A stretch of DNA of 8,274 bases from a virus (Duplodnaviria; Heunggongvirae; Uroviricota; Caudoviricetes), in the IMG/VR virus record IMGVR_UViG_3300014523_000046, one strand, 5' to 3'. Positions 636-6,821 of the stretch are shown here, piece by piece. Position numbers and translations under genes: made by a program. Within the stretch, counting starts at the first letter, position 1. Each line of letters begins with the position of its first letter. Under the pieces are notes generated by a model. That model worked only from the letters and a program-made list of their open reading frames with translations. It ran no database searches and was not told the origin of the DNA.

Positions 636-866
636 TCAATTCAAGAGTCTCATTGCTGCTTCCAGAATTTCTTCTGAAGTTACATGTCGATCCGCTGCTA
701 CATAAATGACTTTATGATCTCCGGTCAGAGATGGAAACCCTGCAGCCATTACAGTGAGGTGTGTTGTTTCGCCATTTGGATATTCACGCATGATGGTGTT
801 AACTCCGGTCATCACTGGCACTACCATTGCTGGTTCAGAGTTAAAAAAAACTATTATTTTTTTCAT
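636..866 (-). CDS. Hypothetical small protein (76 aa), occupying the position between gns and csp paralogs
   Basis: ORF in the track is 636-905, but the codon at 905 is GTG sitting directly against a terminator T-run; the first ATG is at 866 (MKKIIVFFNSEPAMVV...). Weak SD. Sequence has a plausible beta-alpha-beta-like composition but I cannot assign a family. Confidence 0.45.
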   Translation of the reverse strand: MKKIIVFFNSEPAMVVPVMTGVNTIMREYPNGETTHLTVMAAGFPSLTGDHKVIYVAADRHVTSEEILEAAMRLLN

Positions 867-910
867 AATGTTACCGTAATATGTGAGTATCCATCGACTA
901 GACACTAAGC

Positions 911-930
911 AAAAAAGCTCCCGAAGGAGC
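911..930 (-). terminator. Intrinsic terminator (GC stem, UUCG loop, U6 tail on the minus strand)
   Basis: Plus strand aaaaaa GCTCC cgaa GGAGC; on the minus strand this is a 5-bp GC-rich stem with a UUCG tetraloop followed by TTTTTT (911-916). It lies 8 nt after the stop (939-941) of the small Cys-rich ORF and about 200 nt after the cspI-like stop. Confidence 0.5.
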
Positions 931-938
931 CTTCATTT

Positions 939-1193
939 TCACTTTCTTAAATCTAACGATAGACGGCTAACATTTAAGTATTGTGAAATATTATCAAATG
1001 TAATCATCATTGATTTACAAAAGATACATTTTGCCCCGAAAGGATTCCTGTCAGAAACATCAAAAGATGATGTTCTATACTGAGAACCATGGCAACACGG
1101 GCATCTAAAGTGAATATGGTTTGTAATATTATCTACCTCAAAGTGCCACAACATGAACAGCCGCGGGGCCTTTAGGTCCGTTCTCAATACCAA
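939..1193 (-). CDS. Candidate small Cys-rich (zinc-ribbon-like) protein, start uncertain
   Basis: ORF contains C-P-C-C ... 21 aa ... C-I-F-C (CxCC...CxxC), a pattern unusual for a random ORF, and ends 8 nt before a terminator hairpin. The codon at 1193 is TTG with AGGAAG 7 nt upstream; the first ATG is at 1154. Either start overlaps the 3' end of the cspI-like gene (stop 1138) in another frame, which lowers confidence. Confidence 0.3.
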
Positions 1194-1350
1194 ATTCGAC
1201 TTCCTGATTCTCAGTTAACGTTTTGAAATCGTTGCTCTGAATAGCTGAGAAATGGACAAACACATCTTTGCTACCATCTTTCGGCGTGATGAAACCAAAA
1301 CCTTTTTCAGGGTTAAACCATTTCACTAAACCAGTCATTTTGTTAGACAT
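1138..1350 (-). CDS. cspI: Cold-shock protein, CspA family (CspI-like, 70 aa)
   Basis: Translation [70 protein letters not shown] carries the RNP1/RNP2 cold-shock-domain motifs (KGFGFI, VFVHF). Two tandem ATGs at 1353 and 1350; the second gives the canonical MSNKMTGL N-terminus. AAAGGTAATA SD-like sequence upstream, typical of csp genes. Stop TGA 1138-1140. Confidence 0.9.
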
Positions 1351-1353
1351 CAT

Positions 1354-1713
1354 TATTACCTTTTGAAGAAGTTAGCCCTTGGGCAGAATGGTCCGAAAAA
1401 AAATATCAGAGAGAAAAACCAACAAGGAAATCTCAAGAGGTACAAATAATAAAATTATAACAATGACTGCTTCAGATAATTTTGTAACAAACCAGAACAC
1501 CATTAACGCATGATTAACCAACCATAGCAAGGATTACTTTTGTAAAGAAAAACACACGAATGAAACAATAGCTTTATTTATTAATAAAACGTGTCATTCT
1601 GTCTAATGACCTTTTATCTTACCCTTAAGATTTCAAGGATTTTGACTCATGGAAGAGTCCTTTTTATTTAAATTTCACATTCAGCGCTAAAAATAATCCG
1701 ATTTAATATTAAT
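1354..1713 (-). promoter_or_regulatory. AT-rich upstream region of the cspI-like gene (promoter plus probable long 5' UTR)
   Basis: A 360-bp non-coding AT-rich gap between the Rz stop (1714) and the csp start. CspA-family genes characteristically have long structured 5' UTRs. I did not locate an exact cold-box match by eye. Confidence 0.4.
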
Positions 1714-2741
<1,028 letters not shown>

Positions 2742-4024: not shown

Positions 4025-4738
4025 CTAAGAAAATCTTGATAAATATTGGTGCGGAGGCACACCAAAATATCCTCTAAAAACACTTACAAAATATGATGCA
4101 TTGTCATACCCGCATATTCCCGCCACCTTGCCGACAGTATGGTTACTGTAGATCAATAATCTTTGCGCCATCATCATTCGTTCTTCAAGAATTAATTTAC
4201 TAAACGATAATCCTTCGTTTTTTAATTTTCTTTTTAACAAACTCTCGCTCATATATAATCTTGAAGATATATCACAAAGTCTCCATGACGCTGAGATATC
4301 CGAGTGAATAATAGCCTTAACTTTACAACCTAAGCTATTAAGACTTCCGAACAAAAAACTTTGCACTATTTTCTCTGAAGATAAGACAGCAAGACATGCA
4401 AGTGATATTTGATTTCTAACTACATCCACGGTTTTGCTATCACAATTCAAGCATGCAACCAAGTTCCTTAACAATGAAAAATCTTCACATTCTACTATCA
4501 AGTATGACGGATAAAACCTTCTTACAGAAAAAGGTGAGAGTGTGTAGTTTTTAAAGAAATCATTAACTGTTTTCTCCTCAACATCTACGATCATTAGATG
4601 ATCTGTATTTGACGAAAAAAGATCTTTTAAATTGTATTCAATGAGGACAGCATTTCCTTTTTTAAACAAAATATCTTCTTTACCAATTCGGACAACAAAC
4701 GAGTTCAACACCAAAATGATAGAACATATGTATGGCAT
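4025..4738 (-). CDS. AraC/XylS-family transcriptional regulator (237 aa), AT-rich horizontally acquired type
   Basis: C-terminal about 100 aa carry the double helix-turn-helix of AraC/XylS proteins (...SESLLKRKLKNEGLSFSKLILEERMMMAQRLL...VGKVAGICGYDNASYFVSVFRGYFGVPPHQY). The N-terminal domain is not recognisable. The codon at 4747 is GTG and lies inside the SD; ATG at 4738 with AGGTGG 5 nt upstream is the likely start. Very low GC compared with the lysis genes. Confidence 0.85.
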   Translation of the reverse strand: MPYICSIILVLNSFVVRIGKEDILFKKGNAVLIEYNLKDLFSSNTDHLMIVDVEEKTVNDFFKNYTLSPFSVRRFYPSYLIVECEDFSLLRNLVACLNCDSKTVDVVRNQISLACLAVLSSEKIVQSFLFGSLNSLGCKVKAIIHSDISASWRLCDISSRLYMSESLLKRKLKNEGLSFSKLILEERMMMAQRLLIYSNHTVGKVAGICGYDNASYFVSVFRGYFGVPPHQYLSRFS

Positions 4739-5144
4739 ATTATCCACCTGATATCATTGGGGTTACACCAGGTAAGTATAGGTGGAAAATCAATATTCGC
4801 CAGTTCAACAATAAGGAAAATCTCATTGCATCACAACTATAAAACCATGTGTTTAACTCACAAAAAACAAATCATTAAACTAATCTGTTATATTATAATA
4901 GCTGCGTGCAATAATAATATTATATGCTCTTAATATTCACTTGAAATATCTTCATATAAAAACAGATTGAATAAAATCTTTTGGGGCTGGTATGTTTACC
5001 AACATTAAATTGCATCTCAATGTTTTCTTTAGCGTGAACAGGATTTTTATACAAACTGACACTATGGGCATCATAGCGTAGTTTTTACGATTGTAAATAT
5101 CCTGCATACAGGAACTCATCACTTTCAGATGATATCGCATACAG
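4739..5144 (-). promoter_or_regulatory. AT-rich intergenic region upstream of the AraC-like gene (probable promoter and silencing region)
   Basis: About 400 bp of strongly AT-rich non-coding sequence with many A/T tracts, between the DUF523/DUF1722 stop and the AraC start. The only ORF here (4952-5140) looks spurious. Typical of xenogeneic promoter regions; no specific hexamers assigned. Confidence 0.35.
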
Positions 5145-6104
5145 TTAATTCACCATCAGTCTTAGAGCCAGTTCTTCCGGATAGGGATCGAAGTAATTCT
5201 GTGTAAGCAAGTAATCATTAGGATACTCACCCAGATAATGCTTCAGCAGAGTCAACGGCGCAAGAAGAGGCAATGTGCCAAAGCGATAGTTAAGTATAAC
5301 CTCGCTCAACTCTTTACGCTGGCGTGTACTTAAGTAATTACTAAAATACCCCTGTATATGCATCAGCACATTCGTGTGATTTTTACGTGATGCTGGTTTT
5401 CTGAGAATCGCCATCAGATTATCACGATACACCTCAAAGTATGATTCAAGGTCCGCCCACTCGTGTATTGCAGCCACAAATGGTCCCATATCTTTATAGC
5501 CTGCCTGGCTATGCGCCAACAACTGAAGCTTATAACGACTATGAAAAGCTAATAACTCTCTTCTTGATAATTTCTCCTTGTAAAGATGATTGAGCTCATG
5601 CAAAGCAAAAACTCTTTCAATAAAATTCTCACGAAGCACTGGATCATGTAATCGCCCATCCTCTTCAACCGGTAGCCAGGAAAACTTTTCCATCAAAGTG
5701 CTCGTAAATAGTCCCACTCCATCTTTACGACCTCGATTACCATTTTCATCATAGACACGCACGCGCTCCATGCCACAGCTGGGAGATTTAGCACAAACCA
5801 CAAACCCCGATACATCCTTTAATTTGTCCATATAAGAACGACTAAACTCTGTCATTCTCTCTGTCACATCCTCATTCTGGTCGTGGCTGAAACACATCCG
5901 TATATTTCCTTGCTTCGAGCGCACAAGTCGTAGAGCAGGACGCGGAACTGGCAGCCCTATAGCCATTTCCGGACATACTGGTCTGAATGTTACCCATTCC
6001 ACTAATTTGTCCATTAAAAAGTCATCTCTTTTGTGACCACCATCAAAACGAACAGCAGAACCGCCCAAACAACCGCTGATCCCAATCACAGGTTTTTTTA
6101 TCAT
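5145..6104 (-). CDS. DUF523 (TudS-like Fe-S) + DUF1722 (YbgA-like) fusion protein (319 aa)
   Basis: N-terminus MIKKPVIGISGCLGGSAVRFDGGH with Cys at about 12, 44 and 104 (SPSCG) matches the three-Cys [4Fe-4S] ligand pattern of DUF523/TudS-type proteins. The C-terminal half is helical and YbgA/DUF1722-like. ATG at 6104 preceded by AAGGGGGAGGAA. Stop TAA 5145-5147. Confidence 0.8.
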   Translation of the reverse strand: MIKKPVIGISGCLGGSAVRFDGGHKRDDFLMDKLVEWVTFRPVCPEMAIGLPVPRPALRLVRSKQGNIRMCFSHDQNEDVTERMTEFSRSYMDKLKDVSGFVVCAKSPSCGMERVRVYDENGNRGRKDGVGLFTSTLMEKFSWLPVEEDGRLHDPVLRENFIERVFALHELNHLYKEKLSRRELLAFHSRYKLQLLAHSQAGYKDMGPFVAAIHEWADLESYFEVYRDNLMAILRKPASRKNHTNVLMHIQGYFSNYLSTRQRKELSEVILNYRFGTLPLLAPLTLLKHYLGEYPNDYLLTQNYFDPYPEELALRLMVN

Positions 6105-6296
6105 TTCCTCCCCCTTGACTAATTCATTAACACATAAACTTTGTAGTGCACGGACTAAATTGCCTTTCTGGCTTCATCACTGACAATTTTTCTGTTATTG
6201 ACTATTCCTAATATAGTAGGAAAGTTCTTTAAGTGATCGGTCGTACTCATCTATCTTTCATACTTACTCTCAACTATCAAAAGTACAGGATTTATT

Positions 6297-6821
6297 ATGA
6301 AGTTATGGCCTGTGTTGACTGGCATTGCACTCTCTTTCACTCTTATAGCATGTAAGGCCCCGACACCACCTAAAGGTGTGCAGCCGATTACAAATTTTGA
6401 CGCCAACCGCTACCTCGGAAAATGGTATGAAATAGCTCGCCTCGAGAACTGGTTCGAACGTGGTCTGGAACAGGTCAGCGCTACTTATGAAAAACGGAAC
6501 GACGGAGGGATTCGCGTACTTAACCGTGGATACGATCCAACGAAAAACAAATGGAGCGAGAGCGAAGGTAAAGCATACTTTACTGGAGATACTAAAACTG
6601 CAGCGTTGAAAGTTTCGTTTTTTGGCCCCTTCTATGGTGGCTATAATGTAATCAAGCTGGATGATGAGTATAAGTATGCTCTTGTCAGTGGTCCGAACAG
6701 AGAATACCTATGGATTCTGGCAAGGACCCAAACTATTCCAGATAATGTAAAAGCAGACTATGTGCGTACCGCTCAAAAGTTGGGATTCAATGTCAATGAA
6801 CTATTATGGGTTAAACAATAA
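6297..6821 (+). CDS. Bacterial lipocalin Blc-like outer-membrane lipoprotein (174 aa)
   Basis: Signal peptide with lipobox L-I-A-C (MKLWPVLTGIALSFTLIACKAPTPPKG) and lipocalin core motifs shared with Blc (NFDANRYLGKWYEIAR, KVSFFGPFYGGYNVI, YLWILAR). SD AGGA 6 nt before the ATG. Plus strand, opposite to the surrounding phage genes. Confidence 0.9.
   Translation: MKLWPVLTGIALSFTLIACKAPTPPKGVQPITNFDANRYLGKWYEIARLENWFERGLEQVSATYEKRNDGGIRVLNRGYDPTKNKWSESEGKAYFTGDTKTAALKVSFFGPFYGGYNVIKLDDEYKYALVSGPNREYLWILARTQTIPDNVKADYVRTAQKLGFNVNELLWVKQ

What the first reader, a model, noticed from the sequence alone, without database searches (positions are those of the whole stretch)
939..1193. Small Cys-rich ORF overlapping the 3' end of the csp gene
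The ORF has a CxCC...CxxC zinc-ribbon-like arrangement and ends 8 nt before a strong hairpin with a U-tail. Every possible start (TTG 1193 or ATG 1154) overlaps the csp coding sequence in another frame. Either this is a genuine overprinted small protein or the terminator belongs to csp and the ORF is fortuitous.
Basis: seen in the sequence. Interest (0 to 1): 0.4.

Follow-up and report, generated by a model that had tools for sequence, protein, structure and literature searches.

The report
Known cold-shock small protein gene ynfQ
The Cys-rich ORF is the already annotated E. coli prophage gene ynfQ, a 62-residue zinc-ribbon-like protein that starts at a rare ATT codon just after the cold-shock gene cspI, so it neither overlaps cspI nor arose by chance.

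Summary
The ORF, its Cys pattern and the hairpin with a U-tract are all present as described. The ORF is ynfQ (E. coli K-12 b4724), the Qin-prophage paralogue of ymcF. It matches Pfam YmcF-like (PF23641) at 112 bits, against a cut-off of 27.

RefSeq annotates a 62-aa CDS at window 939..1127 (-). It starts at ATT 1127..1125, 10 nt after the cspI stop codon, so there is no overlap.

Across the window plus 80 loci from many Enterobacterales:
- The homologous start codon is ATT in 61, ATC in 4 and ATG in 16.
- An AGG Shine-Dalgarno core lies 7-8 nt upstream in all 81.
- The csp stop lies 9-10 nt upstream in 53.

The 62-codon body is under strong purifying selection (dN/dS 0.06; 44 of 45 third positions vary). 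A terminator-like hairpin follows the ymcF-like stop in 42 of 73 distinct relatives, so it ends the csp-ynfQ bicistron rather than csp alone.

Verdict: an already known gene of unknown biochemical function, and of low interest. The conserved AUU start next to csp is a modest side observation.

The parts
939..1127 (-). ynfQ CDS: 62 codons plus TGA, with ATT start codon at 1127..1125. It encodes a YmcF-like small Cys-rich protein.
   Evidence: The RefSeq CDS in records 99.8-100% identical maps to these coordinates. K-12 ynfQ (b4724) and ymcF (b4723) both begin with ATT. Pfam PF23641 scores 112 bits over ORF residues 23-83. dN/dS is 0.06.
1128..1193 (-). In-frame upstream extension of the ORF (22 codons) that overlaps the cspI 3' end. 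It is not part of the gene.
   Evidence: An in-frame stop interrupts it within 8 codons of the ATT in 31 of 81 loci, including the closest relatives L003-L007. It is open in the window only through a csp-synonymous GTA to GTT change. The Pfam match does not cover it.
1136..1140 (-). Shine-Dalgarno element UGAGG, which contains the cspI stop codon UGA (1140..1138). The AGG core lies 8 nt upstream of the AUU.
   Evidence: Read directly from the sequence. T[AG]AGG with AGG 8 nt (73 loci) or 7 nt (8 loci) before the start is present in all 81 loci.
1138..1350 (-). cspI, a CspA-family cold-shock protein of 70 aa. It is the first cistron.
   Evidence: RefSeq annotation. Pfam CSD at 1.7e-31. NCBIfam CspG/CspA-type hits.
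1092..1508 (-). cspA-type thermoregulator. The Rfam model spans the cspI 5' UTR, the coding region and 46 nt beyond it.
   Evidence: Rfam RF01766 scores 112.8 bits against a gathering score of 78, E = 6e-29.
907..934 (-). Intrinsic-terminator-like hairpin (stem 914..933, UUCG loop 922..925) followed by a U-tract. It lies 7-8 nt after the ynfQ stop codon.
   Evidence: Fold result and the sequence itself. A hairpin plus T-tract in the same position occurs in 42 of 73 distinct relatives, with different stem sequences. The K-12 ymcF locus also has one.
898..936 (-). Truncated ynfR allele: 12 codons here against 21 aa in K-12. It starts 2 nt after the ynfQ stop, and its codons overlap the hairpin.
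   Evidence: RefSeq marks it a 'too short' pseudogene. K-12 ynfR is b4749. Alignment. YnfR-SPA is cold-shock induced (PMC6001520).
636..866 (-). ynfN (76 aa), the next gene downstream. It is co-induced with cspI and ynfQ.
   Evidence: RefSeq annotation. phrog_3425 matches over its full length. cspI, ynfQ and ynfN show similar induction and similar LexA/SspA dependence in PMC11228462.

Best explanation
The ORF is ynfQ, the Qin-type lambdoid-prophage copy of the E. coli ymcF family.

Shown:
- It encodes a 62-residue protein whose core (residues about 9-40) is a four-Cys zinc-ribbon-like knuckle. The ligands are most probably C9, C12, C34 and C37.
- It is the second cistron of the cold-shock cspI transcription unit, which has a cspA-type thermoregulator leader.
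- It lies 10 nt after the cspI stop codon, with a Shine-Dalgarno element (UGAGG) that incorporates that stop codon.
- Its start position is occupied by ATT in the window and by ATT, ATC or ATG in all relatives.
- The frame is under strong purifying selection.
- A terminator-like hairpin follows it.

Inferred:
- Translation starts at AUU 1127, from ribosomes recruited by the Shine-Dalgarno element or re-initiating after terminating on cspI.
- The weak AUU codon, which IF3 discriminates against, keeps YnfQ output low and tied to csp translation. It may also favour the cold, when IF3 discrimination is reported to relax.
- The hairpin is a leaky terminator, because ynfR and ynfN downstream are co-induced.

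Not known: the biochemical role. The most likely guess is a Zn-bound small nucleic-acid-binding or protein-binding adaptor that works alongside Csp proteins in cold acclimation.
For: Identity:
- 2146 of 5426 complete E. coli genomes carry this segment, annotated cspI plus ynfQ/ymcF 'cold shock small protein'.
- RefSeq CDS coordinates map to window 939..1127.
- The K-12 layouts cspI-ynfQ-ynfR-ynfN-gnsB and cspG-ymcF-ymcE-gnsA are parallel, each with a 10-nt gap between csp and the small gene.
- Pfam PF23641 matches at E = 1.5e-32.

Coding:
- 132 homologues were found, mostly 62 aa.
- F7, P10, C12, G14, S15, Q16, R18, C37 and others are invariant, and C9, C11 and C34 are nearly invariant.
- Median dN/dS is 0.06, against 2.1 and 2.2 in the shifted frames. 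Variable sites by codon position are 20/17/44 of 45.

Start codon:
- The homologous codon is ATT in 61 loci, ATG in 16 and ATC in 4.
- In 24 ATT loci there is no ATG, GTG or TTG anywhere in frame between the upstream stop and the first Cys.
- AGG lies 7-8 nt upstream in 81 of 81 loci.
- An intact csp stops 9-10 nt upstream in 53 of 81.
- Both K-12 CDSs begin with ATT.

Fold: AF2 gives pLDDT 88-92 for residues 11-40. The top PDB matches, though weak, are zinc ribbons such as TFIIE-alpha, TFIIB and eL43.

Operon:
- Rfam cspA thermoregulator at 1092..1508.
- ynfQ is listed as 'Qin prophage, cold shock induced' and is co-regulated with cspI and ynfN (PMC11228462).
- A terminator is conserved after the second cistron.

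AUU background comes from PMC5499595 and PMC3592434.
Against: - I found no paper in the held library that shows the YnfQ or YmcF protein, or its AUU start, experimentally.
- The 'YnfQ' detected by tagging in PMC6001520 is a different 37-aa ORF, at 1632890.
- In this window, unlike K-12, the upstream extension is open, so a minor 71-aa isoform from ATG 1154 cannot be excluded.
- AUU mRNAs were reported to be translated relatively worse, not better, at 20 C in vitro (PMC5499595). This argues against AUU acting as a simple cold-activating signal.
- Eight Pseudescherichia loci keep ATT without an intact csp upstream. This weakens the idea of obligatory coupling.
- Fold matches are all above E = 0.1. 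Metal binding is inferred only.
Confidence: 0.9

Rival explanations
1. A genuine overprinted protein. Translation starts at ATG 1154 (71 aa) or TTG 1193 (84 aa), inside the cspI coding sequence in another frame.
For: The frame is open back to 1193 in this window. Some database entries from Citrobacter, Salmonella and a Caudoviricetes MAG are called as 70-71 aa from the equivalent ATG. In 34 ATT loci a canonical in-frame start exists upstream.
Against: - In 31 of 81 loci an in-frame stop lies within 8 codons upstream of the ATT. These include L003, whose 62-aa protein is identical, and K-12.
- The opening in the window is a csp-synonymous third-position change.
- The Pfam model and nearly all annotated homologues start at the ATT-equivalent position.
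- I see no AGGAG-like Shine-Dalgarno motif before ATG 1154 (GGCCCCGCGGCTGTTC ATG).
- Klebsiella and Raoultella copies have ATG exactly at the ATT-equivalent position.
Confidence: 0.05
2. A fortuitous ORF. The hairpin is simply the cspI terminator, and the 190 nt between them are an untranslated 3' region.
For: Standard gene callers and most phage records annotate only csp here. PHROGs has no family for the product.
Against: - dN/dS is 0.06 with a clear third-position variation pattern, across genera whose median dS is about 1.4.
- The Cys and Gly/Ser/Gln residues are invariant.
- None of the 81 loci has an early stop: every body runs at least 57 codons, through both Cys motifs.
- A Pfam family exists.
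- The Shine-Dalgarno element and start position are conserved in 81 of 81 loci.
Confidence: 0.01
3. Same gene and same start, but AUU initiation depends strictly on termination-reinitiation by ribosomes leaving cspI (obligatory translational coupling) rather than on independent Shine-Dalgarno-driven initiation.
For: - All 53 loci with an intact csp 9-10 nt upstream use ATT or ATC.
- ATG appears only where csp has decayed or fused: 15 Klebsiella/Raoultella/Silvania loci plus C. sedlakii.
- The stop codon is embedded in the Shine-Dalgarno element.
- In the infC-like UAA GGU AUU junction, roughly half of second-cistron initiation came from reinitiation (PMC3592434).
Against: The independent lineages are few, perhaps 3-5 events. 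Pseudescherichia keeps ATT without csp. The conserved Shine-Dalgarno element at optimal spacing would also support de novo initiation. No conserved RNA structure sequesters the site.
Confidence: 0.3

Closest known systems
YnfQ (E. coli K-12 b4724, Qin cryptic prophage)
   Same: It is the orthologous gene, in the same position between cspI and ynfR/ynfN/gnsB. Both have a 10-nt gap after cspI, an ATT start, 62 codons and the same terminator hairpin. The proteins are 95% identical.
   Different: There are three amino-acid differences: R/M at residue 27, V/A at 53 and R/K at 61.
YmcF (E. coli K-12 b4723, downstream of cspG) and Pfam PF23641 YmcF-like
   Same: It is a chromosomal paralogue with an identical architecture: csp stop inside UAAGG, a 10-nt gap, an ATT start, 62 aa, [12 protein letters not shown]...GAKCIFCKS, and a hairpin plus U-tract after the stop. 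A gnsA/gnsB-type gene lies further downstream.
   Different: About 65-68% protein identity. It sits in a non-prophage context, and its downstream neighbour is ymcE rather than ynfR/ynfN.
infC and pcnB, the classic AUU-initiated E. coli genes
   Same: Both use an AUU start codon. infC is also a downstream cistron just after a stop codon (UAA GGU AUU) and is cold-induced (PMC3592434 and PMC5499595).
   Different: For infC the AUU start serves IF3 autoregulation and has been shown experimentally. For ynfQ and ymcF the AUU start rests on annotation and on the comparative evidence here. PMC5499595 still lists only infC and pcnB as AUU genes in E. coli.
Rz/Rz1 (rzpQ/rzoQ) embedded spanin genes, a true overprinted pair in the same window
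   Different: rzoQ lies wholly inside rzpQ. ynfQ does not overlap cspI at all.

Membership tests
YmcF-like small protein family (Pfam PF23641; E. coli ymcF/ynfQ) | Match to the family HMM above the gathering score | tested here: met
   112 bits against a cut-off of 27, E = 1.5e-32. ORF residues 23-83 match model positions 1-61 of 62.
YmcF-like small protein family (Pfam PF23641; E. coli ymcF/ynfQ) | Conserved CPxC...CxxC core with the HGSQYR and GAKCIFCK motifs, and a length of about 62 aa | tested here: met
   All motifs are present in the window protein. C12, C37, G14, S15 and Q16 are invariant and C9, C11 and C34 nearly invariant across 43 aligned members.
YmcF-like small protein family (Pfam PF23641; E. 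coli ymcF/ynfQ) | Position immediately downstream of a CspA-family gene, on the same strand | tested here: met
   The cspI stop lies 10 nt upstream in the window. An intact csp lies 9-10 nt upstream in 53 of 81 loci. K-12 has the same layout at cspG-ymcF and cspI-ynfQ.
YmcF-like small protein family (Pfam PF23641; E. coli ymcF/ynfQ) | Cold-shock induction | not testable with these tools
   Indirect evidence only: a cspA thermoregulator upstream, and ynfQ listed as cold-shock induced and co-regulated with cspI (PMC11228462).
Overprinted (overlapping, different-frame) protein-coding gene | The translated CDS shares nucleotides with another CDS in a different frame | tested here: not met
   The start is at 1127, and cspI ends at 1138. 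The overlapping extension is broken by stop codons in 31 of 81 loci, including the closest relatives.
Zinc-ribbon / rubredoxin-like knuckle fold | Two CxxC knuckles brought together on beta-hairpins to bind one metal ion | tested here: inconclusive
   The AF2 core has pLDDT 88-92, with short strands at 17-19 and 32-34. The best PDB matches are zinc ribbons, but at E = 0.28 or weaker. No solved homologue was found by sequence. A review models YnfQ as rubredoxin-like (PMC13348028). Metal binding was not tested.
AUU-initiated genes (infC and pcnB type) | Initiation at AUU demonstrated experimentally | not testable with these tools
   Comparative support only. ATT or ATC occupies the start position in 65 of 81 loci, and ATG in the other 16. 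In 24 ATT loci no canonical start is available at all. The Shine-Dalgarno core sits at a fixed 7-8 nt.
Rho-independent terminator | GC-rich stem-loop followed directly by a U-tract at the 3' end of a transcription unit | tested here: met
   An 8-9 bp stem with a UUCG loop, followed by UUUGCUU. The feature is positionally conserved in 42 of 73 distinct relatives with differing stem sequences. The consensus scanner listed the site only for the + strand. Termination efficiency was not tested, and co-induction of downstream ynfR/ynfN suggests read-through.

The most novel reading that the evidence does not exclude
The AUU (or AUC) start is conserved in every locus where an intact csp stops 9-10 nt upstream, and is replaced by AUG mainly where csp has decayed. 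It could therefore be a functional device that makes synthesis of the zinc-ribbon protein depend on csp translation, on IF3 discrimination, or on both. IF3 discrimination relaxes in the cold, so this would give a translational cold gate on top of the transcriptional and mRNA-stability one. It would also add ymcF and ynfQ to infC and pcnB as natural AUU-initiated E. coli genes with a regulatory rationale.
Probability: 0.3. Interest if true: 0.45.

Novelty: already known. Interest (0 to 1): 0.12.

Why it matters
There is little new here for biology. The gene is already in the K-12 and RefSeq annotation, and a Pfam family exists for it.

The practical lesson concerns annotation. Because the gene starts at ATT, ordinary gene callers either miss it, as in most phage records and PHROGs, or extend it to a spurious upstream ATG that appears to overlap csp.

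The side observation may interest people who work on cold shock or translation initiation. An AUU start is conserved across genera, with a Shine-Dalgarno element built around the csp stop codon, and the function of YmcF/YnfQ is still unknown.

Tried and rejected
1. I looked for a conserved RNA structure around the csp/ynfQ junction that might sequester the Shine-Dalgarno element or the AUU. There is none. The RNAalifold consensus is -3.3 kcal/mol with trivial helices, and the single-sequence z-score is 0.05.

2. The NCBIfam scan gave only a sub-threshold hit to ECs_2282_CxxC, at 16.6 bits against a cut-off of 37. I do not treat the protein as a member.

3. The PDB sequence-profile search gave only weak hits to Rieske box II (CPCHGS) at E = 0.05-1. 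I treat this as motif-level resemblance and not homology. There is no box I, and the middle Cys is replaceable.

4. The Foldseek search against PDB found nothing below E = 0.28. The fold class is therefore suggested but not established.

5. The PHROGs scan gave only a spurious weak DNA-primase zinc-finger hit, at E = 0.004.

6. I searched the literature for experimental proof of the protein or of its start codon:
   - VanOrsdel 2018 uses the name ynfQ for a different ORF.
   - The Nakahigashi 2016 paper and the Weaver 2019 preprint do not mention ymcF or ynfQ in their main text.
   - Two identifiers I tried from memory for Hemm 2010 and Weaver 2019, plus a guessed PMC id, are not held.

7. The simple terminator scanner did not list the minus-strand hairpin. 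I confirmed the hairpin by folding and with my own scan.

Full report
**Observation**

On the minus strand an 84-codon ORF runs from TTG 1193 to TGA 941..939.

Seven to eight nucleotides after the stop lies a hairpin, AAGGCUCC-UUCG-GGAGCUUU, at 914..933. It is followed by UUUGCUU.

The four canonical in-frame start codons upstream of the Cys motifs are 1193, 1187, 1154 and 1151. All lie inside the csp CDS, which ends at 1138. The claim that every possible start overlaps csp, however, holds only for ATG, GTG and TTG.

**Identity**

The segment 880..1420 is present at 95-100% identity in 2146 of 5426 complete E. coli genomes. There it is annotated as cspI followed by ynfQ/ymcF, described as 'cold shock small protein YmcF' or 'cold-shock protein'.

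In records 99.8-100% identical to the window, the second CDS is 189 nt long. It maps to window 939..1127 (-), 10 nt after the cspI stop.

In K-12 MG1655 the same gene is ynfQ (b4724). It sits in the cryptic prophage Qin between cspI and ynfR/ynfN/gnsB. Its chromosomal paralogue ymcF (b4723) has the same layout after cspG. Both K-12 CDSs begin with ATT.

The window as a whole is a Qin-like lambdoid late region. It carries a Q antiterminator, cargo genes, essQ, rrrQ, rzpQ, cspI, ynfQ, ynfN and gnsB.

The ORF product matches Pfam PF23641 'YmcF-like' at 112 bits (cut-off 27). The match covers only ORF residues 23-83, which is the part that starts at the ATT.

**Is it really coding, and where does it start?**

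A database search returned 132 homologues. Nearly all come from Enterobacterales and most are 62 aa. In an alignment of 43 of them, C12, C37, G14, S15, Q16 and others are invariant, and C9, C11 and C34 are nearly invariant.

I fetched 80 genomic loci and compared them with the window:
- The codon homologous to 1127..1125 is ATT in 61 loci, ATC in 4 and ATG in 16.
- An AGG Shine-Dalgarno core lies 8 nt (73 loci) or 7 nt (8 loci) upstream in all 81.
- In 53 loci an intact csp gene stops 9-10 nt upstream, with its stop codon embedded in the T[AG]AGG element.
- In 31 loci an in-frame stop lies within 8 codons upstream of this position. These include the closest relatives L003-L007, and L003 encodes an identical 62-aa protein.
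- In 24 ATT loci there is no ATG, GTG or TTG in frame anywhere between the upstream stop and the first Cys.

The long ORF in this window exists because of a change that is synonymous for csp. K-12 has GTA and the window has GTT, both valine in the csp frame. In the ynfQ frame this converts TAG to TTG.

Over codons 2-46 the median pairwise dN/dS is 0.06, with a median dS of about 1.4. In the two shifted frames it is 2.1 and 2.2. Variable sites by codon position number 20, 17 and 44 of 45.

Together these results refute both 'fortuitous ORF' and 'overprinted on csp'. They support the annotated ATT start.

**Terminator**

Only 10 nt separate csp from ynfQ, and they hold no hairpin. The hairpin follows ynfQ.

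A perfect stem of at least 5 pairs followed by a T-tract occurs within 45 nt of the stop in 42 of 73 distinct relatives. The stem sequences differ widely: GGCTCC/GGAGCC, GGCCCC/GGGGCC, CAGGTCAG/CTGACCTG and AAGCCTCGC/GCGAGGCTT. The feature is therefore selected at the end of the bicistron.

It is probably leaky, for two reasons:
- K-12 YnfR is encoded across this very hairpin, and it accumulates after cold shock (PMC6001520).
- cspI, ynfQ and ynfN show near-identical induction and near-identical LexA/SspA dependence (PMC11228462).

**How it most likely works**

Shown:
- A cspA-type thermoregulator (Rfam RF01766, 112.8 bits) spans 1092..1508, so the unit is a cold-shock mRNA.
- ynfQ is its second cistron, with a conserved Shine-Dalgarno element and start geometry.

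Inferred:
- Ribosomes start at AUU, either de novo through the Shine-Dalgarno element or by re-initiating after terminating on cspI.
- AUU is a weak codon that IF3 discriminates against (PMC3592434 and PMC5499595). This would hold YnfQ well below CspI and could tie it to csp translation or to IF3 state.

One pattern is suggestive. All 53 csp-coupled loci use ATT or ATC. ATG appears only where csp has decayed (Klebsiella, Raoultella, Silvania) or become fused (C. sedlakii).

There are reasons for caution about that pattern:
- The independent lineages are few.
- Pseudescherichia keeps ATT without csp.
- In vitro, AUU mRNAs do relatively worse at 20 C.
- No conserved RNA structure surrounds the start.

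**The protein**

AF2 with the family alignment gives pLDDT 88-92 for residues 11-40, followed by a less confident C-terminal helix.

The best PDB matches are zinc ribbons such as TFIIE-alpha, TFIIB and eL43, but all are at E = 0.28 or weaker. There is no solved homologue by sequence.

The middle Cys of CPCC is replaced by H, R or Y in three loci. The ligands are therefore probably C9, C12, C34 and C37. A 2026 review models YnfQ as rubredoxin-like (PMC13348028).

Function remains unknown. My best guess is a metal-stabilised adaptor that binds nucleic acid or protein and acts in cold acclimation. This guess is inference only.

**Comparison and verdict**

This is a member of a known, named family, and the orthologue of an annotated K-12 gene. 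It is already known.

I found no experimental demonstration of the protein or of its AUU start in the held literature. One 2017 paper still counts only infC and pcnB as AUU genes in E. coli. The AUU start is thus a modest, testable side point.

Interest is low, at 0.12.

Noticed in passing
window 898..936 (-): ynfR begins 2 nt after the ynfQ stop, and its codons 2-9 (933..910) span the terminator hairpin and U-tract. K-12 YnfR is 21 aa and cold-shock induced (PMC6001520). In this window a TAG truncates it to 12 codons, and RefSeq marks it a 'too short' pseudogene. A translated ORF across a terminator hairpin is odd.
   Followed up: partly
window 636..866 (-): ynfN is 76 aa here, with a full-length match to phrog_3425. 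K-12 has a 1-nt deletion in the T-run near the 5' end and annotates only the C-terminal 51 aa. The K-12 'YnfN' therefore appears to be a truncated allele.
   Followed up: partly
window 1764..2060 (-), inside rzpQ 1714..2211 (-): A genuinely embedded gene lies nearby. An Rz1/rzoQ-type o-spanin lipoprotein ORF (LTSC lipobox) sits in another frame of the Rz gene. K-12 annotates it as rzoQ, but the RefSeq record identical to the window does not.
   Followed up: partly
loci L020, L029, L033, L035, L037, L043, L045-L047, L055, L056, L059, L061, L082 (about 120 nt upstream of position 1501): Klebsiella and Raoultella ymcF-like genes sit behind a decayed csp 3' remnant (...CCCTGCGGTAGTGAATGTTGTAGCA...). 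They have ATG at the position where csp-coupled genes have ATT. Some of these loci have an intact csp 450-750 nt further upstream.
   Followed up: partly
window 1086..1112 (-), YnfQ residues 6-14: The motif [10 protein letters not shown] resembles Rieske box II (CPCHGS). A PDB profile search gave only b6f Rieske proteins, at E = 0.05-1, which is not significant. Whether the protein binds Zn, Fe or an Fe-S cluster is open.
   Followed up: partly
phage records H26-H32 (for example Escherichia phages 2H10, mEp460_ev081, PhiR63_1, Tritos): Lambdoid E. coli phage records carry the csp-ynfQ module at 95-99.6% identity. Most annotate only the csp gene, and PHROGs has no family for YnfQ. The ATT start makes the gene invisible to routine phage annotation.
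   Followed up: partly
window 4025..6821 (locus L085 1454..4250): Between the Q antiterminator and the holin lie cargo genes annotated as a lipocalin family protein, a YbgA family protein and an HTH-domain protein. This is moron-like content in the late operon.
   Followed up: no
literature (PMC6001520 Table 1): There is a name collision. 'ynfQ' in VanOrsdel et al. 2018 is a 37-aa ORF at K-12 1632890-1633003, apparently now ynfT. It is not the Cys-rich gene after cspI, so the tagging evidence in that paper does not apply to this protein.
   Followed up: yes
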